A stretch of 64,000 nucleotides of DNA from an uncultured Chloroflexia bacterium (GCA_963766645.1 CAVYAY010000001.1:531020-595019), one strand, 5' to 3'; counted from the stretch's first letter, positions 14,519 to 37,708 are shown. Translations and numbers: made by a program. Notes: generated from the letters alone by a model not told the origin.

Positions 14519-14570
14519 GTTCAGCGCCCTCTCGTCACGTGCCCGAGTGAGGTCACGCGAGCTCCCGGTT

Positions 14571-15340: not shown

Positions 15341-15521
15341 GGAATTTCTCCTCTGCTCTTCGTCAGGTAAGACGGCAGCTACATTCCGCCAGCCTGTCGG
15401 ACTCGTCAAGGTCGCAAACAAACTGGCATGGGGACTGGCCGTACCTGCCACTCGTTCGTATAACCCGTGCGACTGTTGCGCGCTATACTCGCCCAACTCC
15501 CGAAATGGAAGAGTTCGCACC

Positions 15522-16864: not shown

Positions 16865-16865
16865 C

Positions 16866-19349: not shown

Positions 19350-19534
19350 TAAACCCCCTCCGACTGCCCCGAGGCAGCGCGGATCATAGCAGCGGCCCGA
19401 TACCCGTTCGATGGGTATAACCGCTGCTTTGGGGAGATTCTTGCCTATTCAGCGCCCCGCCACGTCCAATCCGCCCGCTCCGAATCATACCGTTTGGTTA
19501 TCGACGACCGGCTTCCGAGCTTCGAGTCCATAGA

Positions 19535-20785: not shown

Positions 20786-22020
20786 CTGTAAACTCCGCAA
20801 ACGGCCTCGACCTGCCACTCTCCGGAGTTCGCGTCCTTGACCTCACCCACCGCTTCGCCGGACCAACCCTGACTATGCTCCTCGGCGACTGGGGTGCGGA
20901 CGTCATCAAGATCGAATGGTGGGATCGCATGGACGCATGGCGCGGCATGATCAGCGTCAAACACGATAAGGACGGCGAACAGGCTTACAACAAGCGGCCT
21001 AACTGGCTGAAGCTGAACCGCAGCAAGCGCAGCCTGACCCTCAATCTGAAGGAGGAGAAGGGCCAGGGAGTCTTCCTCGACCTTGTCCGGCAGTCGGACG
21101 TCGTAGTCGACAACTTCAGTGCCAGCGTTCTCGACCGTCTTGGACTCGGCTATGACGTGCTGCGTGCCGCCAACTCGCGCATCATCTCGCTCTCGCTACC
21201 GGGATTCGGCAACTACGGCCCCCATTCTGATTACGTGAGCAACGGCGGGACCATACAGGGTTACGCCGGCGTCGCGTCGATCACCGGCTACGAGGATGAC
21301 CACAAGCCGCGTGTTTCTATCGGCATCTGGGCCGACCCGGTCTGCGGCGTCCACGGCGCCTCGGCCATCGGCATGGCGCTCCTGGCACGAGAGCTCACCG
21401 GCGAAGGGCAGCGTATCGAGCTCGCGCAGGCCGAGAACATGGCCTCGACTCTCGGCGAATCGATTCTCAACTACACCGTCAACGGAATCGTCGACCAGCC
21501 GCTTGGCAACGCCGACGCAGCGATGGCACCGCACGGATGCTACCCCGCTCTCGGTGAGGACGAGTGGATCACGATTGCCGTCGCCGACGATGCGCAGTGG
21601 TCCGCGCTTTGCTTGCTTGCTGGCCATCCGGAATGGCTCAAGGATGAACGGTTTAAGTCGCAGCGGCTGCGCTGGGAGAACAGGGCAGGCCTGGATGAGC
21701 TCATGCGCCAATGGACCGTCGGCGAGGATAAATGGGCGCTCACGGACCGTCTCCAGGAGGTGGATATCGCCGCTGCGCCGGTCGTGACCATCGCCGATTT
21801 CCACGAACGAGAATCGCTCCCCGCGAGCAACTTCTACCAGGAACTCGACTACCCCTACATGAAATCCTACCCCGGCCCGGGCGTGAGGCTCGACGGGGCG
21901 CCGATCGCGCTGCGCCTGCCGCCGCCTATGCTCGGCGAGCACAATGAGGCGATCCTGAGAGAGCTGCTCGGCTATGGTGACGACGACATCGAGGCGCTGC
22001 GTCGGGCCGGCGTGATCTAG
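20782..22020 (+). CDS. Family III CoA-transferase
   Basis: LSGVRVLDLTHRFAGPTLTMLLGDWGADVIKIE. C-terminus MLGEHNEAILRELLGYGDDDIEALRRAGVI. GTGA overlap with the upstream gene. Confidence 0.85.
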   Translation: MTVNSANGLDLPLSGVRVLDLTHRFAGPTLTMLLGDWGADVIKIEWWDRMDAWRGMISVKHDKDGEQAYNKRPNWLKLNRSKRSLTLNLKEEKGQGVFLDLVRQSDVVVDNFSASVLDRLGLGYDVLRAANSRIISLSLPGFGNYGPHSDYVSNGGTIQGYAGVASITGYEDDHKPRVSIGIWADPVCGVHGASAIGMALLARELTGEGQRIELAQAENMASTLGESILNYTVNGIVDQPLGNADAAMAPHGCYPALGEDEWITIAVADDAQWSALCLLAGHPEWLKDERFKSQRLRWENRAGLDELMRQWTVGEDKWALTDRLQEVDIAAAPVVTIADFHERESLPASNFYQELDYPYMKSYPGPGVRLDGAPIALRLPPPMLGEHNEAILRELLGYGDDDIEALRRAGVI

Positions 22021-22042
22021 CCGGGACGAGCCTCCCGGGCCG

Positions 22043-22984
22043 TTACCCGCCTTCGCACAGAAACGGCAACAGCAGGTCGAGGAACTCCTGCGTCTTCTGG
22101 GTGTGCACGTTGTGACCTGCGCCCGCGACCGTTTCCAGCCGAGCGTTTGGCAGGCACGCGATGAATCGCTCCGCCGCGTCCGATTTGATCAGAGGGCTCT
22201 CTTCGCCGCGGATCAACAGCACAGGACAGGAAACTCCGGCAAGCTCCTCCGGGCTAATTGGTGGACGCGCCGGCAAAGGTGCCCCCGAATTCCCGAGGCG
22301 TGGATATTGCTTGCTGACCAGCTTGCCGTCGGATCGCTGCATCAGATTGAAGCGCATTGTTCGCAGAATGCGTTCCTCGCTTCGGTCTGGCTCCCGTTCC
22401 TGCACCCGCGCAACGTAATCTTCAACCGAGTCGAATTCGCGCGTCGAGCGGACAAACTCCACGATTTGCTGGCGTCCTTCGAGCGCTGACTCCGGACCCG
22501 TATCGACGAGAACGAGCCGCTTCGCGACATCATGTCTGGTGACGAGACTGAGCGCGGTGCGGCCGCCCATCGAGTGCCCTACGATGTTCGGTCGCTCCAG
22601 TCCCAATGCCCGGATCACGCCCAGCACGTCGTTGGCCATCAGCTCCGTAGACATCTCGCCGTCGCGCGGCCATTCGCTGTCGCCGTGGCCGCGCTGGTCA
22701 ACGGCAAAGATCTGAAAATCGTGACACAGCGTCGCGGCCACCATGTCCCAGACGTGGGCCGTCTGGTTACCCCCGTGCAGCATGAGCATCGCAGGCTTTG
22801 ATGCGTCTCCCCATTCAAGGAGATGGAAGCGTAATCCGCCGCTCACGACGTTTCGCGAGTAGCACGAAATCGGCAGGACGGGCTCAAGGCCGCGCTCCCG
22901 CATCGCAATCAAGACGTTCGCAAAATCCTCGCTATCGGTCATGTCCAACCGATCGGCGCTCTCTGAGAAGGTGTTCAGGTACAC
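22043..22984 (-). CDS. Alpha/beta-fold hydrolase
   Basis: HGGNQTAHVWD oxyanion region, nucleophile elbow IVGHSMGGRTAL, and C-terminal GAGHNVH. Confidence 0.75.
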   Translation of the reverse strand: MYLNTFSESADRLDMTDSEDFANVLIAMRERGLEPVLPISCYSRNVVSGGLRFHLLEWGDASKPAMLMLHGGNQTAHVWDMVAATLCHDFQIFAVDQRGHGDSEWPRDGEMSTELMANDVLGVIRALGLERPNIVGHSMGGRTALSLVTRHDVAKRLVLVDTGPESALEGRQQIVEFVRSTREFDSVEDYVARVQEREPDRSEERILRTMRFNLMQRSDGKLVSKQYPRLGNSGAPLPARPPISPEELAGVSCPVLLIRGEESPLIKSDAAERFIACLPNARLETVAGAGHNVHTQKTQEFLDLLLPFLCEGG

Positions 22985-22999
22985 GCGCTGTGCCTCTAA

Positions 23000-23878
23000 C
23001 TAGGCGGTCGAGATGGCATCAGCATAGGCGATCAGGTCTCGGGCGCGCCGGACAATCGCAGTGTCCACCATGCGGCCGTCAACCTGGATCGAGGCTTCGC
23101 CCCGCGCCTCGGCCTCAACGAACGCCGCAACGATGCGGCGCGACTCTTCGACGGCTTCAGCCTTGGGCTCGAAGACCCTGTTCACGGGTTCTACCTGAGC
23201 CGGATGGATCAGGTGCTTGCCTTTAAAGCCAATCGATTTCACGTAAGTCGTTTCGGCTACCAGTCCGGCTTCGTCCTTGAAGTCTCCGAATGGCGTGTCC
23301 AGCGGCTGAAGCCCGTATGCGACCGCGCAGTGAGCGATGATACGCCGTACGTACTCCAGCTCGCCGCCGGCGGGAGTGCGGTCCACACCCATGTCGGCGA
23401 CGTAGTCAAAGCCGCTCAGCGCTAGACCGATCGACCGCGGCGCCGCCGAGGCGATATCGCGGCAATTCAGCACTCCCATCGCCGACTCCACATGGGGCAC
23501 CAGGCCGATGCTACCGGCCGCGATCGAGGCGTTGGCTTCCAGACGACCGATCATCTCGTCCAGCCGTCCGATTTCCTCACCGGTTTTCGCCTTCGGAAAC
23601 GCGATGCCGTCTAGCCCCGGGACGATAACTGCTGTCAGGTCCCCCTCCGTAAGCCCGGTTTCAAAGTGGTTGACCCGGACGTGCACCGTTTTACCGGCTG
23701 CCTTCAGTGAAGCCACCGACGCTGCGATACCCGCGCGCGTCGCTTCCTTCTCGGCCGGCGGCACGGAATCCTCCAGGTCGAGGATGATGACGTCGGCCGG
23801 CGTTTGGTGAGCGCGAGCCACCATGTTTTCTCGATTGGCAGGGACGTAAAGCATCGAACGTAGTATCAGCATGGTCAC
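23000..23878 (-). CDS. HpcH/HpaI aldolase / citrate-lyase beta (CitE)-like CoA-ester lyase
   Basis: SMLYVPANRENMVARAHQTPADVIILDLEDSVPPAEKEATR is the CitE / malyl-CoA / citramalyl-CoA lyase N-terminal signature. Confidence 0.8.
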   Translation of the reverse strand: MTMLILRSMLYVPANRENMVARAHQTPADVIILDLEDSVPPAEKEATRAGIAASVASLKAAGKTVHVRVNHFETGLTEGDLTAVIVPGLDGIAFPKAKTGEEIGRLDEMIGRLEANASIAAGSIGLVPHVESAMGVLNCRDIASAAPRSIGLALSGFDYVADMGVDRTPAGGELEYVRRIIAHCAVAYGLQPLDTPFGDFKDEAGLVAETTYVKSIGFKGKHLIHPAQVEPVNRVFEPKAEAVEESRRIVAAFVEAEARGEASIQVDGRMVDTAIVRRARDLIAYADAISTA

Positions 23879-23879
23879 C

Positions 23880-24647
23880 CTAGCGGCCGCTCCACTGCGG
23901 CTGGCGCTTCTCGCGGAAAGCCTTGGGGCCTTCCAGCGCGTCCTCGGCTTCGAGAAGCTCGTCGTACACCTTTCGGACCATCGGCCTTACCTCTTCGGCA
24001 GGCAGCGTCAATGCTCGCTGGATGATCTCTTTGTGGGCCCTGACCGAAAGCGGAGAATTGCGGCAGATCTTCCGTGCATAATCAATCGCCGTGGGCATCA
24101 GCTCCTCCGGCGACACGACCTTGTTGGCGAAGCCGATCTCGTACGCGCGCTGAGCGCCGATCGGCTCGCCCGTCAGGCACAGCTCCATTAGCGCGCTCAG
24201 CGGTATCTGGTTCAGCAACGTGGGCGCAAAACCGGCGAGCAGGTGCCATTTCGTCTCCGTGATGCCGATCTGCGCCGTCTCCGACATGATGCGTATGTCG
24301 CAGCGCTGTGCATGTCCCCACCCGCCGCCATACGCAAACCCGTTGATCGCCGCGATCATCGGCTTGAAGCTCTCGGTCGGCACAACCCCGTTCTCCGGAG
24401 GCCTCGGGGCCTGCCCAGCGTCATCCGCCGCTGCGCGTTCCTTCAAGTCCCGCCCCACGCAGAACCCCCGGCCGGTCCCGGTAACGATGGCCACCCAGGC
24501 GCTGTCATCCGCCTTGAAACGCTCATAGCTCTCTGCCAGCGTCCGTGAAAGCTCTCGGTTCAGGGCGTTCAGCGCCTCCGGCCGGTTCAGTGTGATTACG
24601 ACAATGTGATCGTCGACTCGGTCGTAGAGAACAACAGGTTCTGCCAT
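23880..24647 (-). CDS. Enoyl-CoA hydratase/isomerase (crotonase)
   Basis: ITLNRPEALNAL...VTGTGRGFCVGRDL...AAINGFAYGGG. 255 aa. Confidence 0.85.
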   Translation of the reverse strand: MAEPVVLYDRVDDHIVVITLNRPEALNALNRELSRTLAESYERFKADDSAWVAIVTGTGRGFCVGRDLKERAAADDAGQAPRPPENGVVPTESFKPMIAAINGFAYGGGWGHAQRCDIRIMSETAQIGITETKWHLLAGFAPTLLNQIPLSALMELCLTGEPIGAQRAYEIGFANKVVSPEELMPTAIDYARKICRNSPLSVRAHKEIIQRALTLPAEEVRPMVRKVYDELLEAEDALEGPKAFREKRQPQWSGR

Positions 24648-24874
24648 GTCGGGACCCCTTTCGGGGGTTCACTCTAGCACCCGCACGCACCTGCTTCCGA
24701 AGTATTCCCGTTTGTACTGGAGCGCCTTTCAGCGGCCCACCCCAAAGGAATCTTGTAGACGCTTTCGATCGCCGGGATCGCGGACCTTCATAACCGGTGT
24801 GCACTGTCTTTGACACCCGGAATTACCGATGCTAGCTTCGCAAAGCTGTACAAGCGCTGAGCAAGGAGAATCGC

Positions 24875-25933
24875 ATGGTAACTCAGACTGCCGGAATCGA
24901 AGTTCTCAACCCGGTGGCTCAAACGGCCGCCGACGGCCAGGCGGTCCCGGCCGGCGATCTGCTGATGGCAGACCACGAGACGTTCGCGGGAGCGGACAGC
25001 TTCGACTCCTGGGAGAACTTCAACACCGAGTTCCTTGACCGCGGCTGGGGCGATGGCTTTCCCCTCGTGGCCCCGACCCGCGAGCGCGTAAATGCGTTCC
25101 TCGATTCTGTCAGGCACCTGGAGCTGGGGCCGTTGGACGTCATCGGCAAGCCCGTCGCTCCTGGCAACGGGATCGCGACGGTCGAGAAGCTCGCCATCAA
25201 CTGTGCAATGGCTGGTTGCCGTCCTGAGCACCTGACTGTCCTGATCAGCACGATTGAGGCAATCACCGAGACAGAGGATGTTGCCTTTCAGGCCGACCTC
25301 CAGTCGCCCGCCGGGCACTTCCCGATGATGCTGGTCAGTGGCCCGATAATACAGCAGATGGACATCAACTCCGGCATGTGCAGCCTGGGGCCGGGCAAAC
25401 CCTCGTTGGTCAACACCGTCCTCGGGCGCGCCCTGCGGCTCATCCTGATGAACGTTGGCCACGCATACCCGACTGCCAAGGACCTTGATACGATCGGCGT
25501 ACCGCAGAAGTTCAGTTACTGCCTCGCTGAGAACGAAGCCCAGAACCCCTGGGACGAACCCTTCCACGTTGAAATCGGTTTCCAACCCTCGGACAGCGTC
25601 ATTACCGTCTTCAGCGTCAGCGAAGTGGGCCACTTCGGCGGTTACACGGCAGAGCCGGAGCGTCTTCTCATCAGCCTTGCCAGGGGCATGCGGCACGCCG
25701 GCGGCGGTGAGCACGACGACAGCGGGCATCAGTACCTCATCATGTACTGCCCGGACCACGCGCGCAGCATGCACGTCGGCGGTGAGACCAAGGAGTCGAT
25801 CCGAAAGTTTGTTGTCGAAAACGTGCCCCTGAAGAACGGTGATAACGTGCACTTCACCGTCGTCGGCGGTCCGTCTTCCGGCAGCCACGTCTACAGGGCA
25901 TTGCCCTCCATCAGCAAGACGATTCGGCTCTAA
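24875..25933 (+). CDS. Uncharacterised 'GDGFP...AMAGC' family protein, copy P1 (no adjacent UxxC partner)
   Basis: 352 aa with AAGGAGAA upstream. Shares GWGDGFPLV, ATVEKLAINCAMAGCRPEHL, LGPGKPSLVNTVLGRALRLILMNVG and NPWDEPFHV with three paralogs in the window. I recognise no family name for it. Confidence 0.7.
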   Translation: MVTQTAGIEVLNPVAQTAADGQAVPAGDLLMADHETFAGADSFDSWENFNTEFLDRGWGDGFPLVAPTRERVNAFLDSVRHLELGPLDVIGKPVAPGNGIATVEKLAINCAMAGCRPEHLTVLISTIEAITETEDVAFQADLQSPAGHFPMMLVSGPIIQQMDINSGMCSLGPGKPSLVNTVLGRALRLILMNVGHAYPTAKDLDTIGVPQKFSYCLAENEAQNPWDEPFHVEIGFQPSDSVITVFSVSEVGHFGGYTAEPERLLISLARGMRHAGGGEHDDSGHQYLIMYCPDHARSMHVGGETKESIRKFVVENVPLKNGDNVHFTVVGGPSSGSHVYRALPSISKTIRL

Positions 25934-25990
25934 TACCGGAGGATCGCCTCCCGGCAGCAGGGCGGCGGCATCGAGATCGGGGGGTGCTGC

Positions 25991-28270
25991 GTGGCGGGTG
26001 CACTCGAAGGCATACGCGTCATCGATTTCGGCCAGTACATCGCCGGCCCGCTGGTCGCCATGCTCCTCTCCGACCAGGGCGCCGACGTCATTCGCGTCGA
26101 CCCGCCGGGTGGCCCGCGCTGGAGTCACCCAGCCAACGCCACGCTGAACCGCGGCAAGCGCCGATTAGAACTGGACCTTAGAGACCCGGCCGGCAAGACA
26201 GCCGCACTGAGTCTGATCGGCAGCGCCGACGTTGTTATCGAGAACTTCCGGCCCGGCGTCATGGAGAGTCTCGGGCTCGCCTGGGAGCAGGTGAGCCCTG
26301 ACCACGAGAGGCTCATCTACTGCTCGATTCCAGCCTTCGCCGCTGACGACCCTCGTGCCCGCTTGCCTGGCTGGGAAGGCGTCGTCGCCGCGGCGACTGG
26401 CGCTTTCCCCACTCGCCCCGGCCGCCGTCACCCGGCGAGCGCGGTCGAGCCAGAGGCAGTCGACGCGCCCCGGTTCACGGCGCTGCCGCTCGCGTCGGAG
26501 TACGGCGCGGTGGCGGCCGCGATCGGCATAGCGATGGCGTTGATCGCTCGCGAGCGCGACGGACTCGGGCAATGTCTGGAGATACCCCTCTTCAATGCGA
26601 TGTTTCTCGCCATCGGTTCCAGTGGCCTGCTGGTCAACGGCGGACCCTCGGGTGGACGCCCGATGGATCCCTGGGGCGGCATCTTCCCCGCCAAGGGCGA
26701 AGGCCGTGTGCTCATGAGCCTGCCCACGCCGCGATTCCTCGACACTTTCCTCAAGGCCACTGGCAAAGACCGCGAATGGGAAGACAAAGGCTACCTCGCG
26801 GCGGACGCCGTCAACGACAAGGATCTGATGGCGCGCCTTCAGCAAGACCTCGTCGACGTGTTCATGTCTCGCACTGCCGACGAGTGGGACGAACTGGCGA
26901 CCGAGGTAGGCGTCCCCGTAACGCCGGTGCGTCAGGCCCGCGGCTGGATGGAGGCGAAGCATACGCATGAGGCGGGGATATTCGTCTTGGTCGACGATCC
27001 GGAATTCGGGCCGATGGTCCAGCCCGGTCCGTCGATTAAACTCAACGGCACGCCGGGCGGCGTGCAGGCGCCGCGCGCGGCAACCGCCTCTCCGGGCATC
27101 GATGGCATCGACGTTACAGCCGCTATCGCCGGGCCCACAAAGGAACAACCCCTATCGGCGCCTCTCGAAGGCTTCCGGGTCATTGACACCACGTCGATCC
27201 TCGCCGGGCCCACGGCTGGCCGGACGCTCGCTGAGTTCGGCGCCGAGGTTATCAAGGTCAACAACCCTTGGGAGCAGGGGTCCGGTTATCGCTGGCAGGT
27301 CCACCGCTACCACAGCGACGTCAACCGCGGCAAGAAGTCGATCCTCATCGACCTGAAGCAGCCAGCGGGCCTCGACCTCCTCTGGCGGCTGGTCGAGAAG
27401 TCAGACGTCTACCTGCAGAACATGCGCCTCGGCGTTGCGCAGCGCCTCGGTGTTGCCTACGCGGACGTCAAAAAGCACAAGCCCGACATCGTCTACCTTT
27501 CGATCTCGGCCTTCGGCTACGGCGGGGAGTGGGAGTATCGTCCCGGCTATGAGCCCGTCGCGCAGAGCTTTTCGGGTATGCAGGCCCGCGGGCCCCAACC
27601 CTACGCCGTGAACGATTACTGCACAGGGTTGCTCGGCGCTTTCGGCGTTGGATTGGCTCTCTTTCATAGGCTACGCAGCGGTGAGGGGCAGAGCGTTGAG
27701 ACCTCGTTGGCCCACGCGTCAACCTATCTTCAGCTCCCTTACATGCAGCTCTACGCGGGCAAAAAGTGGGACGAACCCTCCGGCCCCCACGCCCGCGGCT
27801 GGAGCCCGCTACAGCGCATGTATCGCGCCAGCGACGGATGGTTCTTCTTGGGCGCGGCGTCCTCCCAGATAGACGCGCTGGCTTCGATCGCGGGGTTGGA
27901 AGCTGCGAAGCAGCCGACAGGAGACGCCCTGGCCGGCGCCCTCGAGGCCGCGTTCGCGGGGAAGACCGCGGCTGCCTGGGTCAAGTCGCTTACTGCTGCC
28001 GGGCTCGGCGCGTACCCCATCGGTATCACGGAGCCGGAGCTAATGGCCGATCCTTGGGTCGTTGACCACGGCCTCAGCGTCACCCAGACCTACAAGGACG
28101 GCTCGCGTATCACGACCATCGGCCCTCCTTGGCGCCTGTCCCGTACGCCCCCTTCCGTGCGACACCTCGTTTCGCCTCCTGGTGGCGATGCATACGAGGT
28201 TATCGCGAAAGCCGGCCTCAAGGACCGATTCGAAGAGCTTGTGCGCGAGAAAGCGGTTCTCCTCGAATAG
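25991..28270 (+). CDS. Tandem (two-domain) family III CoA-transferase
   Basis: 759 aa. Domain 1 starts LEGIRVIDFGQYIAGPLVAMLLSDQGADVIRVDPP. Domain 2 starts near residue 390 with LEGFRVIDTTSILAGPTAGRTLAEFGAEVIKVNNP. Confidence 0.8.
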   Translation: MAGALEGIRVIDFGQYIAGPLVAMLLSDQGADVIRVDPPGGPRWSHPANATLNRGKRRLELDLRDPAGKTAALSLIGSADVVIENFRPGVMESLGLAWEQVSPDHERLIYCSIPAFAADDPRARLPGWEGVVAAATGAFPTRPGRRHPASAVEPEAVDAPRFTALPLASEYGAVAAAIGIAMALIARERDGLGQCLEIPLFNAMFLAIGSSGLLVNGGPSGGRPMDPWGGIFPAKGEGRVLMSLPTPRFLDTFLKATGKDREWEDKGYLAADAVNDKDLMARLQQDLVDVFMSRTADEWDELATEVGVPVTPVRQARGWMEAKHTHEAGIFVLVDDPEFGPMVQPGPSIKLNGTPGGVQAPRAATASPGIDGIDVTAAIAGPTKEQPLSAPLEGFRVIDTTSILAGPTAGRTLAEFGAEVIKVNNPWEQGSGYRWQVHRYHSDVNRGKKSILIDLKQPAGLDLLWRLVEKSDVYLQNMRLGVAQRLGVAYADVKKHKPDIVYLSISAFGYGGEWEYRPGYEPVAQSFSGMQARGPQPYAVNDYCTGLLGAFGVGLALFHRLRSGEGQSVETSLAHASTYLQLPYMQLYAGKKWDEPSGPHARGWSPLQRMYRASDGWFFLGAASSQIDALASIAGLEAAKQPTGDALAGALEAAFAGKTAAAWVKSLTAAGLGAYPIGITEPELMADPWVVDHGLSVTQTYKDGSRITTIGPPWRLSRTPPSVRHLVSPPGGDAYEVIAKAGLKDRFEELVREKAVLLE

Positions 28271-28292: not shown

Positions 28293-29489
28293 TCAGATCG
28301 GCCGCGCGGCGTGGATGATCTCTCGCGTCACCGTCGGGTTCCCCATGCACGGCACCAGGTCGCTCTGCCCGTTCGGCCCGCCAACCACGACGATCTGCAC
28401 CTGCTCCGGGTTCTGAAACTCCGGCACGAGCTCTTCCGGGTCCATGGCCTCGAGGCGTTGCTGAAGGTCAGCTGGTAGCGCTTCCCAGCCGACTGACATC
28501 GTCGCCAGTGCCTGCTTCAGGGGCCTCCGCGCGTTTTGCAGCAGGTACTCCCTGATCGAGGTCTTGGTGTGACCCGATTCGCTGAGGACACGAGCGTGGT
28601 CGGGCGCCAGCAGCATCACCTGGCAAGACCCTCCTTCGCCCTCCGTCCGGCTCGGTATCAAGCCCGAAGGACCGCCCGATGCGGACGCCTTGCCGGCCCA
28701 GCCCAGCAATATCTTCTCCGCGTCGGCCTGGTAGTTGTTGTAATGCACCATGCTGTTCGCCCCGTACACGGTGACCGTGCTAGCGCTCCGCTCGAAACCC
28801 TTTTCGACGTGCAGCGGCTCCCAGGGGTTCTGCGCCTCGTTCTCAGCCACGCACATGCTGTACTTGGTCGGGCTGCCGATGGTGTCCATGTCGCCACTGC
28901 CGGGGTAGCAGTGGCCTACGTTCATCAGGACCAGCCGGAGCGCCCGGCCCAGGACTGTATTCACCAGCGACGGTTTGCCGGGGCCGAGGGTGCAGCGCCC
29001 GTTGTTGATACCCAGCTCCTGGACAATTGGCCCGTTGATCACCAGCATCGTCGTCGTCGGGTTCGTCGACATCGTGATGCCGCGGACGGGAAACACCTCC
29101 TGCGGTGTTTCGAGGATCGCCTCCACCGCTGCGATCAGTACCGCGAGATGCTCCGGCCGGCAGCCGGCCATGACTGCATTGACCGCGACCTTCTCCACTG
29201 TCGCGGCACCGTAAAACGGCGCCAGCTTGCCGAGGACGAGGCCGGGCGGCAAGCGCACCGCGCGCAGCGCCGCTTCAACGCGCGCGCGTGTCGGCGGGAC
29301 GAGCGGGAACCCGTCGCCAATGCCGCGCTCGTTGAAATCGCCGTTGAATCGGTCCCACGCCTCGATCAAGTCTTCGCCGTGGTAGCGCTCCCGCCGTGCG
29401 GGCAGCGGTTCCCGCCCGCGCAGGTCTGCCTCCAGCTGAGCCACCGGGTTCAGAACATCTAGCGTGGCGGTATCACTGCGGGAGCTCAT
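28293..29489 (-). CDS. 'GDGFP...AMAGC' family protein, copy P2
   Basis: GIGDGFPLVPPT, ATVEKVAVNAVMAGCRPEHLAVLIAAVEAI, LGPGKPSLVNTVLGRALRLVLMNVGHCYP, NPWEPLHV. The N-terminus has LDVLNPVAQLEAD. Confidence 0.7.
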   Translation of the reverse strand: MSSRSDTATLDVLNPVAQLEADLRGREPLPARRERYHGEDLIEAWDRFNGDFNERGIGDGFPLVPPTRARVEAALRAVRLPPGLVLGKLAPFYGAATVEKVAVNAVMAGCRPEHLAVLIAAVEAILETPQEVFPVRGITMSTNPTTTMLVINGPIVQELGINNGRCTLGPGKPSLVNTVLGRALRLVLMNVGHCYPGSGDMDTIGSPTKYSMCVAENEAQNPWEPLHVEKGFERSASTVTVYGANSMVHYNNYQADAEKILLGWAGKASASGGPSGLIPSRTEGEGGSCQVMLLAPDHARVLSESGHTKTSIREYLLQNARRPLKQALATMSVGWEALPADLQQRLEAMDPEELVPEFQNPEQVQIVVVGGPNGQSDLVPCMGNPTVTREIIHAARPI

Positions 29490-29523: not shown

Positions 29524-30027
29524 TCAGGACTCCCGGATCAGGCAAGCGATAATCGAATCGAGAGCCGCCTCGGCTGCCTCTTCCACTTGGCTGTCCGACA
29601 GGGTTGCCAGCAACCTTCGCAACTCCACGAACTCGTAGTTCTGCAGGCCCATCACCCGCGCCATAGAGCGTACGATGTTCGCATAGGCCCGGTTGCATAT
29701 TGTCACGCCCGGCTTGCCGTCCCGTTCGGCGGCATACATGTCGTGCAAACTGCACGACGCGCACGGCGCTCAATCGCCAATCGCAGTGATGAAGACGTCC
29801 GCACGGGGGATGAAGCCCTCAAGCAGCTTGCTGTCGGCCGGCCAGGTTGGCTCGAGCTTGCTTGCCCAGACTACATCCCGCAGGTTGAACCGCGCCCGGA
29901 GGAGCTCAACGACCTTCTCCAGAAAGACCTTGCTCCCATGCTTGTTATTGTCGAGTACGCCTAGCACGAGCCCGTCCAGGCTGACGGGACGTTCCGCGGC
30001 CAGTGTCTCGCCAGAGTCCCTCGACAA
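29524..30027 (-). CDS. Putative small selenoprotein, UxxCxxC variant (U-A-P-C-A-S-C) of the UGSC-type family (U3)
   Basis: ORF 29770..30027 ends ...FITAIGD-TGA (29772..29770). The same frame stays open for 81 more codons: APCASCSLHDMYAAERDGKPGVTICN...ACLIRES (ORF 29524..29748 is its tail). It is collinear with the other two UxxC genes. Confidence 0.65.
29740..29758 (-). promoter_or_regulatory. SECIS-like hairpin, 11 nt after the TGA
   Basis: mRNA GUCGUGC-AGUUU-GCACGAC: perfect 7-bp stem with a 5-nt loop. Confidence 0.55.
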
Positions 30028-30037: not shown

Positions 30038-30283
30038 CTACCTGGCCGGGACGATCTCGACTTCCCTCACGTACGGCGCCTGCGCCTTGCACATCGCCTC
30101 GGCCATCTCCTTGAACGCGTCTGGCTCCATGATGCACTCGGGGCATTCCGCGTTCGTGCCCTCGTAATAACGGACGCGTAGCACGCCGGCTTCAACGTTC
30201 ATGGGCTCGACGATTACGCCCTCGTTGTCCTCCAGGGATGACCTCAGCGTGTTCAGAATGAGCTCGATTTTCTCGTCGATCAT
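30038..30283 (-). CDS. NifU/Nfu C-terminal-domain-like small protein with a CPEC motif
   Basis: 81 aa. IELILNTLRSSLEDNEGVIVEPMNVEAGVLRVRYYEGTNAECPECIM matches the Nfu pattern (dGG..elv....g.v.v...G.C..C). Confidence 0.6.
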   Translation of the reverse strand: MIDEKIELILNTLRSSLEDNEGVIVEPMNVEAGVLRVRYYEGTNAECPECIMEPDAFKEMAEAMCKAQAPYVREVEIVPAR

Positions 30284-30320: not shown

Positions 30321-32033
30321 TCAGGTTTCGATAACCTTGCTGATCGAGGCTGGCCCTGTAATGAACTCGCTCACACCGTGGTCGCCGCCAATTACGGCGA
30401 TGTGGATATGACTCGGGTTCGGGTCGCCCCGGATTGGTGTCTCCGGGTCCATGGCTGCGATACGGTCCTTGACCTCCTGCGGCACAGCTTCCCAACCGAT
30501 GAAAGCATACGTTGCGAGGAATTCACGAAGCGGTGTCGCGGGCGCGTTTTGCACCATGTACGCCTGCAGATCGGCTTTGCTGTAGCCGGCCGCGACCAGG
30601 CTGCGAGCGTGTTCCGGCCCCAGGATCAGGAGCTGCCCGCCACGGTCGGCATCACCCTCTGTGCGGCTAGGTATGCCCAACGCTCCGCCACCACCCGCGC
30701 CAGAGCCACCGCCACCCGCCGCACCACGGGCGGCCAGTACCTTGAGCAACGGGCCGACGTCGCCGGGGTCGCTGGCAAACGACGAGACGTCGCCTGCGGC
30801 AAACATCGTTACCACGCTTTGGTCCGCGTCAAAGCCCCGGCTGACGTGGAAAGGCTCACCCCAGGGGTTGGCGTCCTCATTCTCGGCGAGAACGGCGCTG
30901 TACTTGCCGGAAGTCCCAATCGTATCGAGGTCCAGAATCTCCGGATACGCCTGCGCCACGTTCATGATGATCAAACGCATCGCCCGGCCGATTACCGTGT
31001 TGACGCGGCCCGGCTTGCCAGGGCCCCACGCGTTCATTCCTGTGTGCAGTCCAAGCTGCTTCACAATCGGTCCGTTCAGCAGCATCAGCGGATAGCCCGC
31101 GCCGTGAGAAGACAGCAGGATCCGCAACGGAAACTGGCCGATCGGTGACTCCAGCATCGCCTGTATCGCGGCGATCAAGACCGGCATGTGAGCTGGCTCG
31201 CAGCCGGCCATCGCAGCGTTGATCGCGATCTTTTCGATGGTCGCCATGCCGTCGCCGGGCGGGAAGGGGCGTCCCACCACGTCCAGCGGCTGCCAGCGGT
31301 TGCTCACGTAGTCGAGGAACGGTTTTACACGTTCGGGAGTCGGTGGGAACAGCGGGAAACCATCGCCCCAACCTCGCTCCATAAACGCCTCGTTGAACGC
31401 CTCCCATGCGTTGAGCCGGCTGGAGGACCCAAAGGATTCCGTGGCCGCCCGCTGCAGTTCACGCACGACAGCTCCCGAAACGTCCGCCGGTGGCGTCACG
31501 AGCGCCTCCAGCACCTCGGGCAGCGATGCGTCCGCATCCCCGCTGGCCTGGGGCTCTGTCCGGCTTGTCAGGGTGTACGGGATCACGACTTGCACCAGGG
31601 AGGGGAAACCGAACACCTTTGACGATGCGGCAAAATCTGCTTCATAGCCGACCGACGTGATGGAGACCGTGGGGATCCCGAGCTTCTCAAGCTCTGTCAT
31701 GTCATACGCAAGGTACGACGTGCAGGACCCTCAATCGGCTGTCGCGCCGACCACGATGTCGCAGTGATCAGCCTCGATTGCCTCCAGCACCGATTTCTGG
31801 ATCGGACGCCTGCTGTCGTAGTGGAAGGTTTCCATACTTGGAAACTGCTGCTTCAGCCGAGTCTCAACCTGGTTCAGGTAGTGGATGCCACCGGGTTTGC
31901 GGTTCCAGTAGAAGCCGACCCGCTTACCTTCCAATGACCTGGGTCGAGTCGGCATCACAAGCGCCTCACCCAGGTCTGCAGCCAGCTGCGAAACCGGGTT
32001 CAGTACCTCAAATGCATCAGTCTCGGTAACCAT
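30321..32033 (-). CDS. Putative selenoprotein: UGSC-type domain fused to a 'GDGFP...AMAGC' domain (U2-P3), 570 aa if TGA is read as Sec
   Basis: ORF 31731..32033 ends ...DIVVGATAD-TGA (31733..31731). The same frame continues GSCTSYLAYDMTELEKLGIPTVSITSVGYE... into ORF 30321..31700, which carries GWGDGFPLFPPT, NAAMAGCEPAHMPVLIAAIQAM, WGPGKPGRVNTVIGRAMRLIIMNVAQAYP and NPWGEPFHV. Confidence 0.7.
31701..31719 (-). promoter_or_regulatory. SECIS-like hairpin, 11 nt after the TGA
   Basis: mRNA GUCGUAC-CUUGC-GUAUGAC: 7-bp stem (one G.U pair) with a 5-nt loop. Same spacing and geometry as the hairpin at 29740..29758. Confidence 0.55.
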
Positions 32034-33183: not shown

Positions 33184-34128
33184 TTAGGAGTTCCTCTCGC
33201 CGCGATTCTTGAGATAACGGTAAGCGGCGACCGCCGCCGTTGCCCCGTCGCCGGCGACGGCAGCTAGCTGAGCCACCGAATTCTGGCGGATGTCGCCCGC
33301 TGCGAAGACCCCAGGCGCCGACGTCTGCATCATGATGTCGGTCACTATGTGGCCACTCGGGTCGAGATCGACAGCTCCCTGGAGGAACGTCGTATTCGGG
33401 TCAAGGCCCACGAAGATAAATACGCCGGCAAACTCCTGGGTCTCGCTCTTCCCGGTAGCGAGATCCACTAACCGGACGCCCGTCACAGCGTCGCTGCCGA
33501 TGATTTCTTCGACCTGGCGCCCATAGGCCACCTTCAGGTTTGGTTTTGCCTCGGCCTTCTCGACAATGGCCCGCTGCAATCGCAGCTCCGCGCCGCGGTG
33601 AAACAGCGTCACGTCAGACGCGAATTCGGTCAGCACGACGGCTTCGTCCACCGCCGCGTCGCCGCCGCCGACTACGCAGACCGACTGCCCGGAAAAGAAG
33701 GGACCATCGCAGGACGCGCAATGCGAGACGCCTTTCCCCACCAACTCCTCTTCGCCCGGCACGCCGAGGCTACGCAGCGTCGAACCCGAAGCGATGACCA
33801 GCGTCCGCCCGGTCACCTCGCTCTCATCGCACCTTACGAGCTTCTCATCGCCGCCAGTGTCGATCGAGAGGGCCGAATCAAAAACAAACTCGGCGCCCGC
33901 CATCTGGGCCTGCTCTTGCAGCATCGGCCCGAGTTCATACCCCGGGACGCCTTCTGGGAACCCCGGGAAGTTCTCAACTTTGTCGACGTTGATGATCTGA
34001 CCGCCCGAAGTGCCCCTGTCGATCACGGCGACACTTAGCCCGAAGCGGCTGGCCGTCAAAGCGGCCGTCAGTCCGGCGACGCCTGCGCCAATAACCAGCA
34101 AATCGTAGTCACTCATGTCCGTTCCCAC
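33184..34128 (-). CDS. trxB: Thioredoxin-disulfide reductase
   Basis: YDLLVIGAGVAGLTAALTASRFG (FAD GxGxxG), redox-active VSHCASCDGPFF, second dinucleotide site VVGGGDAAVDEA, C-terminal FAAGDI. Confidence 0.85.
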   Translation of the reverse strand: MGTDMSDYDLLVIGAGVAGLTAALTASRFGLSVAVIDRGTSGGQIINVDKVENFPGFPEGVPGYELGPMLQEQAQMAGAEFVFDSALSIDTGGDEKLVRCDESEVTGRTLVIASGSTLRSLGVPGEEELVGKGVSHCASCDGPFFSGQSVCVVGGGDAAVDEAVVLTEFASDVTLFHRGAELRLQRAIVEKAEAKPNLKVAYGRQVEEIIGSDAVTGVRLVDLATGKSETQEFAGVFIFVGLDPNTTFLQGAVDLDPSGHIVTDIMMQTSAPGVFAAGDIRQNSVAQLAAVAGDGATAAVAAYRYLKNRGERNS

Positions 34129-34164: not shown

Positions 34165-35881
34165 TTAGCCGCCCGAGCGCACCAGTTCGGGCCCAAGCTC
34201 TCGCACGTCCTGAATTGGGCCGGAGCTGTAGTCGCCAAGCCGAAGCTGCACCGACGCTTGCTGATCTCCGAAAGCCTCATGGCGAAGAACGACATTGCTC
34301 AGACCGCATTGCGATACCGCCGCCCGCGCTAACGAAAGCATCTGTGCATCGCCCGGGGCTCCCTTTAGCGTGGCGATGCAAGGTGGCGACAAGAAGCGCG
34401 CCAGCGCGCCACCGAAGCCTGCCGCCATGGCGCCGTACTCGCGGTGAAACTCGTCGAACGGCCAGAGAGCCCCAGTAGGCCCCTTCTCGGTAGACGGACT
34501 CGCCGGTGAGGTCCGCCAACCGTGTTAGGAACGCAGCCGCTTGAGCGTTCTGAGCCGGGAGCGTCAACGGACGACCCAACCCTCCCGGGCCTGTTGCGCT
34601 GATATCGGAGTAGCCTCCGGCCGGATTGCGGTGCTCCGAGACAACGTAGACCGCCAGGTCCAGGGCCCGCTGCAGTTGCGTCACATCGCCCAGCAGGGCA
34701 TACGCGTCCAGCATCGCCGACCCGGCTGCGACAGCATCTAGCAACAAACCGTAAATCAAAGGTTCGCCATCCCAGTAGTGAGACAGGCCGCCATCCTGCT
34801 GGTGAAGCGTGACCCAGAGCCACTCAAGGACTGTTACCGCGCGGTCTCGGCAGTCCTCTCGGCCCAGGATTAGCCATGCCTGCATGTATGCAGATGCGGC
34901 GCGGGCGTTCTGGTCGGCGTAGACGCAATCGTCGAGGTACGAGTCCAGCGGGCCGTCCACACCTTCCGGACCCGCAACGCGTCGGATGTAGTCCTGGCAG
35001 CCGAGGAACACGCCCTTGTCAGCGTCCAGTAGCGTCCCGTCCATGTCGTCGATCAGCTCCTCCGCGCAACCGCGGTAGAAGTCATCACCGGTCAATAAAA
35101 AGGTATGTAGGAAGTTGCGGAGCATCCCGGCCTGGTCGTCGAGCAGCTTCTCCGGGTGCGGCTCCTCCCAGTCCAGGCGAGACGAGTAGCGATAGTAGCC
35201 TCCTCCGCCTTCAGAGTGATACATGCTGCTGGAACGCATTTTCTCTAGCGTCAGCTGTACATGGGTTAGAAATAATCCCTCTCCGGTCACCTCGTACAGG
35301 TATAGGAAAAGGTCGTTCGCTTCGCTATGCGGGAACTTCGATTCGAGGCCGTATCCACCGTGTACTGGGTCGGCGAGGCCCTGCACCATGCCTGCGATCT
35401 CGCCCACGAGCGAGACGTTGAGACCCGCCCGGTTAGGGGTAGCCACGGGCCGGTCTGTCTGGGTTGCCCGTACCCGTTCGATTAGCTCTTCCTTCTTCTC
35501 GTGGTACGTGTTGGCGGCCTGCGCCAGGATGTCAACCATCGGCTTGGGACCGAGCGAGTTGAGCGTGAACATGTGGTCACCACCGGGTGTAAGAATCGCC
35601 AGGGTCGGCCAGCCGTTTTGCGTGTAGCGCGCGTCTATGTCCGGCCGGCGCGCTTCCTCCACGCGGATTGGCAGGAAGTTCGCGTTCAGCGATGCAATGA
35701 CCTCGTCGTCGGAGAACGTAACCTCGTCCATGCGCTGGCAGGCGCCACACCAGAAGGCCACAATCTCAAGGAAGACGGGCTTGTCCAGCTGTTTCGCTTC
35801 TGCGAAAGCGGCGTCGCCCCACGGCCGCCATTCGATCAGGTGAGCCTTGTTCGGCCGCGCCGAGAAGCGGAACTCCCTCAT
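34165..35881 (-). pseudogene. Thioredoxin-domain (DUF255 / YyaL-like) protein with a CGAC motif; one frameshift near 34459-34461
   Basis: N-terminus FLEIVAFWCGACQRMDEVTFSDDEVIASLNANFLPIRVEEARRPDIDARY. The body is like the six-hairpin-glycosidase-type domain of YyaL. The C-terminus continues in ORF 34165..34428 (FDEFHREYGAMAAGFGGALARFLSPP...). The span is 1717 nt. Confidence 0.65.
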
Positions 35882-35945: not shown

Positions 35946-37064
35946 CTAGTCCCATTCCCAGTTGATCTTCTTGGTGACCATGCCGCCGCCGTCGCGCTTG
36001 GAGTGGTTGCCGCCCGTGAACAGGTAGCTCACATGGCCGCCGCCCCATCCACCACTCACCATGACCTGCATGTGTGACGGGTCGGTGATGTGATAGACCT
36101 TGGCCTCGCCGTCATTGAGGTCGACGCGATTAGCCCAGTGGTTCGCCGCTGTGTGGGTTTCCTGCGGCACCCCCGGAGACTGCAAATCGTGCTGCGCCTG
36201 CTTGTCTTTGACCAAGTGATACGTGTTCTCCCACACCGTGTCGCGGAAGCGTTCCTTGCTCCAGCCGGCGTCGGCAAGCATCTTCGCCGCATCCGGATTA
36301 AGTGCTATGACCGTGCAGGCGCCGCTGCGTAACTGTGCGATCCGGCGGCCCATATCGGCCACATTGCGCTCCAGGTCGGCGCCCGTCCTGACGAAGCCCG
36401 TACCCAGATACGTGCCGTGAGCGTCGAGCACCGTGACCGCACTGTCTTCAGCCTTCAGTCCAGCCGCGCTGACGTGGAAGGGCTCCCACGGGTTTCCGTC
36501 GTCGGTAGGCCGCTCGCAGATCAGATGGCCCCAACGGTCGGCCTGAGCGAAGACACACTTCGCCAGTTCCCCTGGCTTCGTCAGCCCGACATTCCACTGG
36601 ATCAGCCGTATCGCCCTCGCGATCGTGCCATTCGCACGGTTGCCGGAACCCGCCAGCGCGCCTTCGGCATAGTGGAAGCCGAGCTTCTTCACCACGGGTC
36701 CGCTGATGATTGCGAGCGGCGGACCCCCCACCGTACTGACTGAATTCAGGATGTGGTAGTCGTCATCCAGGATCGCCTCCATGGCGGTAATCACCACTGG
36801 CACGTACTCCGGCCGGCAGCCTGCCATCGCGCAGTTGATAGCGATCGCCTCCATCGTGACCTCGCCCTCACCAGGCATGAGGACACCGAGACTCTCGTCC
36901 GCCGGGCGACCGATGTAGTCGAGAATCTGCCGCACCCGCCGCTCGGTGGGCACGAAGACCGGGAAGCCATCCGTCCAGCCCTGTTCGAAGACGAAGTCGG
37001 TGAAATCGTCGATGTCTTCGATGCTGAACTTCTTCGCCGCCAGCTTGAAATCTTCCGCAACCAT
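35946..37064 (-). CDS. 'GDGFP...AMAGC' family protein, copy P4 (most divergent)
   Basis: GWTDGFPVFVPT, EAIAINCAMAGCRPEYVPVVITAMEAI, GNRANGTIARAIRLIQWNVG, NPWEPFHV. Start trimmed to ATG 37064, 2 nt after the TAA of the upstream UGSC gene. Confidence 0.7.
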   Translation of the reverse strand: MVAEDFKLAAKKFSIEDIDDFTDFVFEQGWTDGFPVFVPTERRVRQILDYIGRPADESLGVLMPGEGEVTMEAIAINCAMAGCRPEYVPVVITAMEAILDDDYHILNSVSTVGGPPLAIISGPVVKKLGFHYAEGALAGSGNRANGTIARAIRLIQWNVGLTKPGELAKCVFAQADRWGHLICERPTDDGNPWEPFHVSAAGLKAEDSAVTVLDAHGTYLGTGFVRTGADLERNVADMGRRIAQLRSGACTVIALNPDAAKMLADAGWSKERFRDTVWENTYHLVKDKQAQHDLQSPGVPQETHTAANHWANRVDLNDGEAKVYHITDPSHMQVMVSGGWGGGHVSYLFTGGNHSKRDGGGMVTKKINWEWD

Positions 37065-37066: not shown

Positions 37067-37708
37067 TTATTCCCCTGTTTCCTGCGAGGACGATTCCCGG
37101 CCGCGGCGCGGTTGCGAGCCCCGCTGACTCTCCTGCGGCTGCCACTTCTGAGCCGTCAGCATGTCTTTCAGCTTCATCGCCTGCTCGTGTGCCTTGAGCA
37201 CGACTTCCTCGTGTGACTCCGCGGACGGCTTGTCCGCCGGGTACGCGATCACGACATTGCTAGAGTCTTCGATGCCCAGCAACTTCAACTCCGTCCGAGC
37301 AAGCCTTTCGAAGTGCTCGTGGACCATAACCACGGAGGGGATACCTTCTTTTAGCATGTTTGCCGCGTCACGCACGGCTGCAGTACTGCAGGATCCTCAA
37401 GCCCCGACGCCGGTGATCGCATAGTCGATCTTCGGCGCCATCTCCTGGATATCTGAGATGGGGGATGGTATCCACGTGTTGCCGTGGAACTTACCGTCGC
37501 CCATGTCGTGTTTGTAGTGACGTTGGATGTCGCGGGGCTCGTAGAGCTCGGTCACCGCGTTTTCCATCTCCGGCCAGAACTTCGTCGAGATATCGTGCAT
37601 GCCCCAGAGGAACCCGACACGCTGGCCCTCAACTGTCTCAATCGTCTTCAACGGCTTCCGCTGCGTCGCTGCCGTTGAGCCTTCGGGAGAAAGGAACTCA
37701 ATGCTCAT
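37067..37708 (-). CDS. Putative UGSC-type selenoprotein (U1), 213 aa if TGA is read as Sec
   Basis: ORF 37397..37708 ends ...DYAITGVGA-TGA (37399..37397). The same frame continues GSCSTAAVRDAANMLKEGIPSVVMVHEHF... into ORF 37067..37375. Confidence 0.7.
37362..37378 (-). promoter_or_regulatory. SECIS-like hairpin, 18 nt after the TGA
   Basis: mRNA GCCGUG-CGUGA-CGCGGC: 6-bp stem (one G.U pair) with a 5-nt loop. An alternative smaller hairpin, CUGCA-GUAC-UGCAG, lies 5 nt after the TGA. Confidence 0.4.

What the first reader, a model, noticed from the sequence alone, without database searches (positions are those of the whole stretch)
24875..25933. Four-member uncharacterised protein family (P1-P4); P1 is an orphan copy coupled instead to the tandem CoA-transferase
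P1 (24875-25933), P2 (28293-29489), P3 (the C-terminal part of 30321-32033) and P4 (35946-37064) share these blocks:
- G(W/I)(G/T)DGFP(L/V)
- (A/E)(T/A)(V/I)EK(L/V/I)A(I/V)N(C/A)(A/V)MAGC(R/E)PE
- GPGKP..VNTV(L/I)GRA(L/M)RL(I/V)(L/I)MNV
- NPW(D/G/-)EP(F/L)HV

P1 has no U partner. It is followed 57 nt later by the two-domain CoA-transferase. P1 and P2 begin with (I/L)(E/D)VLNPVAQ..AD, the same motif that opens the U2 domain (FEVLNPVSQLAAD). This suggests they derive from a U::P fusion by loss of the U domain.
Basis: seen in the sequence. Interest (0 to 1): 0.65.

Follow-up and report, generated by a model that had tools for sequence, protein, structure and literature searches.

The report
Orphan partner domain of UGSC selenoproteins
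P1 is a rare copy, stripped of its selenocysteine domain, of a very large uncharacterised enzyme-like domain that is otherwise almost always fused or adjacent to the UGSC selenoprotein domain, so it offers a way into the unknown function of one of the commonest environmental selenoproteins.

Summary
The window has four paralogous P domains (P1 is 50, 47 and 32% identical to P2, P3 and P4) and three UGSC selenoprotein domains with in-frame TGA. P1 has no U nearby and lies 57 nt upstream of a tandem family-III CoA-transferase.

P is not a small orphan family. It has 5,557 clusters at 50% identity and at least 577 hits in GTDB species genomes. It has no Pfam, NCBIfam or PDB sequence match, and the confident AF2 model has no close solved fold.

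Of 150 P domains with enough flanking DNA, 145 have a same-strand U within 600 nt. In 76 of 80 genome loci, U and P share one reading frame interrupted only by a Sec TGA. All 80 fusions start with LEV(L/V)NPVA, the motif that opens P1 and P2.

In a bootstrapped NJ tree P1 nests among U::P fusions and is not sister to P2. P1 and P2 therefore each descend from fusions that lost the U core, most simply by separate losses.

Fusions of P to ferredoxin-thioredoxin-reductase, AhpC/TSA and NifU-like domains, plus thioredoxin reductase genes nearby, suggest a thiol/selenol redox enzyme, probably acting on organic-acid or CoA-ester substrates. That mechanism is inferred and the substrate is unknown.

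The parts
24875..25933 (+). P1: U-less P-domain protein, 352 aa
   Evidence: Intact ORF with an RBS. It carries every family-invariant residue. AF2 gives pLDDT 90.2 and pTM 0.91. Orthologues at 76-78% identity have the same architecture.
24893..24934 (+). N-terminal strand motif GIEVLNPVAQTAAD, homologous to the first strand of UGSC::P fusions
   Evidence: The U HMM weakly aligns here at positions 4-21. DSSP assigns a strand at residues 8-11 in the model.
25217..25219 (+). Codon of Cys115 in the AMAGC motif
   Evidence: Cys in 261 of 270 P domains. The codon is read directly.
24863..24868 (+). Shine-Dalgarno-like AAGGAG, 6 nt before the ATG
   Evidence: Sequence.
25991..28270 (+). Tandem (two-domain) family-III CoA-transferase, 57 nt downstream of P1
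   Evidence: Two PF02515 stretches, E 3e-148. A 69%-identical orthologue lies next to the P2 orthologue in L141, and a homologue lies next to the P1 orthologue in L081.
28293..29489 (-). P2: P domain that carries the N-terminal strand motif and lacks a U core
   Evidence: The orthologue P0034 has the same architecture.
29524..30027 (-). U1: UGSC selenoprotein without the N-terminal strand, variant motif D-U-A-P-C-A-S-C, TGA at 29770-29772
   Evidence: The orthologue in L141 has the same features.
30038..30283 (-). Small NifU-like protein with a CPEC motif
   Evidence: Weak PF01106 hit. Homologues occur in 16 of 80 loci. One P protein has a weak C-terminal NifU-like match.
30321..32033 (-). U2::P3 fusion selenoprotein, TGA at 31731-31733 in TAD-U-GSC
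33184..34128 (-). Thioredoxin-reductase-like flavoprotein with a CASC motif
   Evidence: TrxR homologues occur in 6 of 80 loci.
34277..35881 (-). DUF255 / thioredoxin-domain protein
35946..37064 (-). P4: stand-alone P domain (GWTDGFP type) without the strand motif
   Evidence: It has 2,559 homologues, all unnamed.
37067..37708 (-). U3: UGSC selenoprotein with strand motif IEFLSPEG, TGA at 37397-37399; its stop codon (37067-37069) is separated from the P4 start codon by 2 nt
22043..24647 (-). Divergent operon of enoyl-CoA hydratase, HpcH/CitE-like lyase and alpha/beta hydrolase, upstream of P1

Best explanation
P1 is a functional, U-less descendant of a two-domain selenoprotein (UGSC domain fused to the P domain).

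Shown:
- P is a large, conserved domain of about 340 aa with enzyme-like conservation. Residues present in at least 86% of 270 P domains include D60, T102, C115, N180, R185, R188, N193, E219, W226, H231 and H295.
- P is almost always fused or adjacent to a UGSC Sec-x-x-Cys domain.
- P1 keeps the N-terminal strand of the fusion and the whole P core. It has lost the U core and a segment of about 35 aa near the C-terminus.
- P1-clade genes always sit beside a tandem or paired family-III CoA-transferase.

Inferred:
- P holds the substrate pocket. The conserved arginines suggest a carboxylate or CoA-ester substrate.
- The Sec of U is the redox nucleophile, and Cys115 of P usually acts as relay or resolving thiol.
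- The oxidised Se-S or S-S bond is re-reduced by thioredoxin reductase, NifU-like CxxC or ferredoxin-thioredoxin-reductase-type modules.
- P1 performs the P-domain chemistry on an intermediate of the neighbouring CoA-transferase / hydratase / lyase pathway. It either uses Cys115 alone or borrows a U domain in trans. U1, which lacks its own N-terminal strand, is the obvious candidate.
For: - Family size and conservation.
- U-P linkage: 145 of 150 P domains have an adjacent U. 76 of 80 loci are single-frame Sec fusions and 4 of 80 are Cys forms. P::U-order fusions also exist.
- AF2 model of a Cys-type fusion: pLDDT 92 and pTM 0.92, consistent with a defined U-P arrangement.
- Redox-module fusions: U::P::FeThRed_B, FeThRed_B::P, AhpC/TSA::P, and a weak P::NifU-like match.
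- Redox genes nearby: TrxR in the window and in 6 of 80 loci; NifU-like in 16 of 80 loci, mostly in one Dehalococcoidia lineage.
- Descent of P1 from a fusion.
- P1 is under selection: orthologues at 76-78% identity share the same deletions and clade-specific substitutions.
- CoA-transferase adjacency is kept through rearrangements.
- CoA-transferase III, ECH, MmgE/PrpD, TctC, HIBADH-like and acyl-CoA dehydrogenase genes recur next to U::P in several phyla.
Against: - No biochemical datum exists for any member.
- I could not read model coordinates, so the proximity of Sec to Cys115 or to the conserved pocket is untested.
- Cys115 is Ala in 9 of 270 P domains, including 7 U-P fusions that keep every other conserved residue. 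Cys115 is therefore not indispensable.
- Neighbouring genes are heterogeneous, and these genomes are rich in CoA-transferase paralogues (at least six in this window). Part of the CoA association could be background.
- P1 lost a segment of about 35 aa and changed six otherwise conserved positions. It may have shifted function.
Confidence: 0.5

Rival explanations
1. P is a non-redox enzyme (hydrolase, hydratase or isomerase) whose chemistry rests on the conserved Asp/Glu/Arg/Asn/His set. The U domain only regulates or protects it. P1 is then simply the catalytic core working alone on a dicarboxylate or CoA-pathway intermediate.
For: - Best fold matches are a Toblerone-fold cyclic amide hydrolase (E 1.2e-4) and class I fumarate hydratase (E about 5e-4), plus domain-level chorismate-mutase / YjgF-like hits.
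- Cys115-to-Ala variants keep all other conserved residues.
- P1 survives without U.
- Many neighbours are hydratases, lyases or MmgE/PrpD proteins.
Against: - The fold matches are poor: TM 0.22-0.25 and rmsd 12-16 A.
- hhalign finds no internal three-fold repeat.
- This reading does not explain the near-obligate Sec-x-x-Cys partner or the repeated fusions to FeThRed_B and AhpC/TSA modules.
Confidence: 0.25
2. P1 is a decaying remnant of a U::P selenoprotein gene and has no function of its own.
For: It lacks the U core and a C-terminal segment of about 35 aa, and it differs at six otherwise conserved positions.
Against: - The ORF is intact and has an RBS.
- All invariant family residues are kept.
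- The AF2 model is confident.
- Four orthologues at 76-78% identity from other samples share the same architecture and length.
- Adjacency to CoA-transferase genes is conserved despite rearrangement.
Confidence: 0.05
3. U-P is not a substrate-converting enzyme. It is a metal, Fe-S or selenium/sulfur trafficking module in which Sec and Cys are ligands, and P1 is a Cys-only carrier.
For: Fusions and neighbours include NifU-like (Fe-S scaffold type) and FeThRed_B ([4Fe-4S]) domains.
Against: - P has only one strongly conserved Cys, at 97% (Cys216 is at 86%).
- Extensive paralogue expansion, with more than 10 copies in one Chloroflexi MAG.
- Varied catabolic and transporter neighbours fit substrate-diversified enzymes better than a housekeeping carrier.
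Confidence: 0.1

Closest known systems
UGSC-containing selenoprotein with fused 'Unknown_1' domain (Zhang & Gladyshev 2008, PMC2398784; UGSC = PF24696 / NF041046)
   Same: P2, P3 and P4 are partnered with or fused to UGSC domains carrying Sec-x-x-Cys. P carries a conserved Cys, as the paper reports for Unknown_1.
   Different: P1 has no UGSC core. The P domain has no model in Pfam or NCBIfam. The identity of P with 'Unknown_1' could not be verified because the figure is held only as an image. The paper guessed a thioredoxin-like fold for UGSC, whereas the AF2 model matches flavodoxin-like alpha/beta folds, weakly.
Glycine/betaine/D-proline reductase B components (GrdB/PrdB selenoprotein with GrdE/PrdA partner, recycled by thioredoxin)
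   Same: The logic is similar: a UxxC selenoprotein paired with a larger substrate-handling partner, thioredoxin-system genes nearby, and betaine-type and peptide-type ABC transporters next to some loci. What I say about the Grd/Prd enzymes themselves comes from my own background knowledge, not from a tool.
   Different: No sequence match to any Pfam family other than UGSC, even at E up to 10. None of the 50 listed Foldseek matches is described as such a protein. A pyruvoyl-forming site was not examined.
Toblerone-fold cyclic amide hydrolases (cyanuric acid hydrolase / barbiturase, e.g. 5hy4) and class I fumarate hydratase (e.g. 6uq8)
   Same: These are the best Foldseek matches for the P1 model. 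Sub-domains resemble the chorismate-mutase / YjgF-like alpha+beta unit.
   Different: TM-scores are 0.22-0.25, rmsd 12-16 A and identity 7-14%. No internal repeat is detectable. P does not have the three conserved Cys needed for a cluster of the fumarase type.
Thiol-dependent reductases fused to their reductant modules (for example Msr-Trx fusions)
   Same: Catalytic domains recur fused to Trx-fold, FTR-type or CxxC modules, with a variable resolving Cys. The comparison with Msr-type enzymes is from my own background knowledge.
   Different: No sequence or fold relationship was found. The substrate is unknown.

Membership tests
P domain of UGSC::P proteins (probable 'Unknown_1') | Signature blocks GxxDG(F/L)P, A(T)VEKxAxNxxMAGC, LGPGxxxxxNxxxGRAxRLxxxN, ENExxNPWxxxH | tested here: met
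   P1 has all of them. These residues are 85-100% conserved over 270 domains.
P domain of UGSC::P proteins (probable 'Unknown_1') | UGSC domain fused or adjacent on the same strand | tested here: not met
   There is no U within 3.5 kb of P1, and the nearest one is on the other strand. The feature is met in 145 of 150 other P domains and for P2-P4.
P domain of UGSC::P proteins (probable 'Unknown_1') | N-terminal L-E-V-(L/V)-N-P-V-A strand of the fusion | tested here: met
   P1 residues 8-15 read IEVLNPVA. The motif is present in 80 of 80 fusions.
P domain of UGSC::P proteins (probable 'Unknown_1') | Same domain as the published 'Unknown_1' alignment | not testable with these tools
   Figure S1A is stored as an image only.
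UGSC family (seleno)protein (PF24696 / NF041046) | Alpha/beta core with a D-U/C-G-x-C motif | tested here: not met
   P1 has no Pfam or NCBIfam hit. The U HMM aligns only to about 18 N-terminal residues, with i-E 0.29.
Glycine/proline reductase component B (PF07355 GRDB, PF09338 Gly_reductase) | Sequence match to the family models | tested here: not met
   No hit for P1-P4, or for 89 family members at E up to 10.
Glycine/proline reductase component B (PF07355 GRDB, PF09338 Gly_reductase) | Self-cleaving pyruvoyl-forming site in the partner subunit | not tested
   No test is available here. Mass spectrometry of the protein would be needed.
Toblerone-fold cyclic amide hydrolase | Global fold match and three-fold internal repeat | tested here: not met
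   Best TM 0.23-0.24 with rmsd 12.6 A. hhalign between the three thirds of P gives probabilities of 1% or less.
Class I fumarate hydratase | Three conserved Cys ligating a [4Fe-4S] cluster, and a global fold match | tested here: not met
   Only Cys115 (97%) and Cys216 (86%) are conserved. TM is 0.19-0.25.

The most novel reading that the evidence does not exclude
UGSC::P is a previously unrecognised class of selenoenzyme with a new catalytic fold. It would be a selenol/thiol-driven reductase (or isomerase) acting on carboxylate or CoA-ester metabolites, diversified into many substrate-specific paralogues in Dehalococcoidia/SAR202-like bacteria, Rokubacteria and others. The P1 clade would show that the P domain can work without selenium, wired directly to a CoA-transferase pathway.
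Probability: 0.35. Interest if true: 0.8.

Novelty: new variant of a known kind. Interest (0 to 1): 0.62.

Why it matters
- UGSC proteins are among the most abundant selenoproteins in ocean and freshwater metagenomes, and their function has been unknown since 2007-2008.
- This analysis shows that their near-universal partner is a very large enzyme-like domain with no Pfam or NCBIfam model.
- Gene callers routinely split the protein at the Sec codon, so databases hold it as anonymous 'hypothetical proteins' of about 447 aa.
- The redox-module fusions and the catabolic gene neighbourhoods turn 'function unknown' into a testable hypothesis.
- The naturally U-less P1 and P2 forms, the strand-less U1, and the Cys-type fusions are ready-made constructs for testing which part does what.

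Tried and rejected
- PDB sequence searches with profiles A1, A3 and A6 and with a U domain found nothing significant. A recurrent E of about 1 match to pyrrolidone-carboxylate peptidase covers one 46-residue stretch, and I treat it as chance.
- Lenient Pfam and NCBIfam scans of 89 members looked for consistent weak hits. Only UGSC appeared.
- Foldseek of the fusion model returned only weak flavodoxin-like hits to U.
- hhalign between the three thirds of P found no internal repeat.
- I tested whether the extra Cys110 of the P1 clade replaces the missing U thiol. Cys110 also occurs in 26 of 177 U-P fusions, so I rejected the idea.
- I tested whether one half of the P-P tandems is a Cys-less pseudo-domain. 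Both halves keep the Cys, so I rejected this too.
- The sigma-70 promoter scan found none around P1.
- A literature search for 'selenoprotein' plus 'SAR202' returned nothing.
- The supplement of the 2008 paper could not confirm the identity of Unknown_1.
- Model coordinates are not exposed, so no Sec-Cys distance could be measured.
- MAFFT did not align the P1 N-terminus to the fusion N-termini. The low pLDDT of P1 residues 1-30 is therefore uninformative.

Full report
**What is in the window**

P1 (24875-25933, +) is an intact 352-aa ORF preceded by AAGGAG. It aligns over its whole length with three other proteins: P2 (28293-29489, -), the C-terminal 382 residues of 30321-32033 (-), and P4 (35946-37064, -). 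Identities to P1 are 50, 47 and 32%.

- U1 is 29524-30027 and has the motif D-U-APCASC.
- U2 is fused to P3 and has TAD-U-GSC.
- U3 is 37067-37708 and has GA-U-GSC.

All three in-frame stops are TGA, each followed by a hairpin that begins roughly 15-20 nt downstream. An apparent selB lies in the same window.

A six-frame HMM scan finds exactly four P and three U domains, and nothing U-like beside P1. P1 is followed 57 nt later by a 759-aa protein with two family-III CoA-transferase domains.

**The family is large and unmodelled**

- P1 finds 671 homologues, and P4 finds 2,559. Apart from one fragment labelled UGSC family (seleno)protein, none carries a name other than 'hypothetical protein'.
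- A profile search of the 50%-identity representative library gives 5,557 clusters at E no greater than 1e-3, and 1,514 at no greater than 1e-30.
Most are in Dehalococcoidia and other Chloroflexota. Others are in Rokubacteria/Methylomirabilota, Betaproteobacteria, Nitrospinota, Synergistaceae, Desulfobacteraceae, Sphingomonadales and Actinobacteria.
- No Pfam or NCBIfam model matches P. This holds even when 89 diverse members are scanned at E up to 10 or 1 to look for consistent weak hits.
- No PDB chain matches by sequence.
- AF2 models are confident: P1 has pLDDT 90.2 and pTM 0.91, and a Cys-type fusion has pLDDT 92 and pTM 0.92.
- The best Foldseek matches in the PDB are poor. A Toblerone-fold cyclic amide hydrolase gives E 1.2e-4 and TM 0.23. 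Class I fumarate hydratase gives TM about 0.22. There are also domain-level chorismate-mutase / YjgF-like hits.
- hhalign shows no internal repeat.
- The U domain resembles flavodoxin-like alpha/beta folds, but only weakly.

**P is the obligate partner of UGSC**

In all 80 genome loci a U domain lies directly upstream of P on the same strand. In 76 of them the first in-frame stop upstream of P, in P's own reading frame, is a TGA inside (T/S)xD-U-G-x-C-T-S-W. U and P are therefore one fusion selenoprotein of about 560 aa. Gene callers cut it into a fragment of about 100 aa and a 'hypothetical protein' of about 447 aa. In the other 4 loci Cys replaces Sec.

Over all 139 fetched loci, 145 of the 150 P domains with enough flanking DNA have a same-strand U within 600 nt. 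In 139 cases U is upstream and in 6 it is downstream. Four of the five exceptions sit in P-P arrays that include a U gene. P::U-order fusions and P-P tandems also exist.

Zhang and Gladyshev (2008) noted a 'UGSC/Unknown_1' fusion with a conserved Cys. This is very probably the same domain, but the figure is held only as an image. Reviews up to 2026 still list UGSC as uncharacterised.

**Origin of P1**

Every one of the 80 fusions begins with L-E-V-(L/V)-N-P-V-A, 84-104 residues (median 87) before the Sec/Cys. In the window the strict motif occurs only at the N-termini of P1, P2 and U2. P1 and U2 share 14 of their first 21 residues.

P1 and P2 look like fusions with the U core cut out. The N-terminal strand runs straight into the 'ETFxG...AW..FN' segment that starts the P domain. 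Both strands are predicted in the fusion model (11-16 and 201-206) and in P1 (8-11 and 34-37). This fits U being an excursion between two neighbouring strands. That last point is inference from secondary structure only.

In an NJ tree of 136 P domains, P1, P2, P3 and three U-P fusions form a clade in 81 of 100 bootstraps. P1's closest neighbours are U-P fusions in 95 of 100. P1 and P2 are sisters in only 2 of 100. The simplest reading is two independent losses of the U core.

The P1 clade (five sequences, 76-78% identical to P1) has further derived features:
- It uniquely lacks about 35 residues between the PDHAR and VVGG motifs (32 residues against a family median of 67).
- It differs at six positions that are 80-93% conserved elsewhere: A110C, P121T, A125S, T145P/H, N155S and G200T.
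- It keeps all invariant residues.

I read this as a functional but shifted protein, not a pseudogene.

The U1/P2 arrangement, with a strand-less U carrying U-APCASC next to a strand-bearing P, is conserved in another organism. That organism has a 76%-identical P2 and a 69%-identical tandem CoA-transferase lying convergent to it.

**Link to CoA-transferases**

P1-clade genes are always next to the tandem or paired CoA-transferase, but the orientation varies.
- In the window and in a Logan assembly the CoA-transferase is downstream on the same strand.
- In L081 it is divergent upstream.
- In the two P0005 contigs, CoA-transferase genes (two on the longer contig, one called on the shorter) lie divergent upstream.

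Adjacency that survives rearrangement argues for functional coupling.

The link is not unique to P1, however. CoA-transferase III or enoyl-CoA hydratase genes directly flank U::P fusions in Rokubacteria, Betaproteobacteria, Sphingomonadales, Nitrospinota and Chloroflexi. After de-duplication, the recurrent neighbours are family-5 solute-binding proteins with Dpp-type permeases, TctC, ECH, MmgE/PrpD, HIBADH-like dehydrogenases, CoA-transferase III and acyl-CoA dehydrogenases. In one Dehalococcoidia lineage there is also a ProV-type ABC ATPase. This looks like substrate-diversified catabolic enzymes for organic acids or CoA esters. These genomes are very rich in such paralogues, so part of the signal may be background.

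**Mechanism (inferred)**

Four lines of evidence point to thiol/selenol redox chemistry:
- The partner domain carries Sec-x-x-Cys.
- P is independently fused to ferredoxin-thioredoxin-reductase catalytic domains (U::P::FeThRed_B and FeThRed_B::P), to an AhpC/TSA redoxin domain and, weakly, to a NifU-like domain.
- A NifU-like CPEC protein, a thioredoxin reductase and a DUF255 thioredoxin-domain protein lie among the U/P genes in this window.
- TrxR and NifU-like genes recur in other loci.

The strongly conserved Arg, Asn, Asp and Glu residues fit a carboxylate-type substrate pocket.

There are caveats. Cys115 is Ala in 9 of 270 domains, including 7 U-P fusions that are otherwise intact. It is more likely a relay or resolving thiol than the essential nucleophile. 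I could not access model coordinates, so the position of Sec relative to P is untested. The substrate is unknown.

**Verdict**

The main correction is one of scale. P is the unmodelled second domain of a major environmental selenoprotein family, and P1 is a rare U-less derivative tied to a CoA-transferase.

I rate it a new variant of a known but uncharacterised kind, of moderately high interest. It gives concrete handles on a long-standing unknown.

Noticed in passing
window 15045-16864 (+): An apparent selB is split into two overlapping ORFs in different frames. 15045-16025 carries the EF-Tu-type GTPase domain, and 15899-16864 carries the SelB winged-helix domains. This could be a frameshift, a sequencing error or an unusual gene structure.
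   Followed up: partly
window 29524-30027 (-); L141 2487-2996: U1 has a variant redox motif D-U-A-P-C-A-S-C (UxxCxxC) in place of UGSC, and it lacks the N-terminal LEVLNPVA strand, which sits on its partner P2 instead. Both features are conserved in a second organism.
   Followed up: partly
window 12078-28270: Family-III CoA-transferase genes are very dense here: 12078-13532, 13439-14632, 16866-18134, 19535-20785, 20782-22020, and the tandem two-domain 25991-28270. Enoyl-CoA hydratases and an HpcH/CitE-like lyase lie among them.
   Followed up: partly
proteins P0175, P0238, P0206 (metagenomic): The P domain is fused to ferredoxin-thioredoxin-reductase catalytic-chain domains, at either end, and to an AhpC/TSA redoxin domain.
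   Followed up: yes
proteins P0189, P0228 (metagenomic): Some stand-alone P proteins have an N-terminal Tat-signal or lipoprotein-like leader, followed by a 'W-L-Y-N-P-(V/A)-G' stretch that recalls the VLNPVA strand. Some family members may be exported.
   Followed up: no
L084/L085 8613-14040; proteins P0122, P0124, P0138, P0142, P0213, P0216: P domains also occur as adjacent P-P gene pairs and as tandem P-P fusions of about 710-740 aa. Both halves keep the AMAGC Cys. In L084/L085 one U gene apparently serves several P genes.
   Followed up: partly
L004, L006, L009, L036, L040, L045, L049, L055, L064, L067 (one groundwater Chloroflexi MAG, JACPQD01): A single genome carries well over ten U::P or P paralogues spread over many contigs. 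This is an extreme expansion of the family.
   Followed up: no
window 38266-39973 (-): tRNA-Glu and tRNA-Gln genes lie directly downstream of a 496-aa ORF (38483-39973) that looks like a glutamyl-tRNA synthetase by its sequence motifs. This is ordinary housekeeping context that bounds the U/P island.
   Followed up: no
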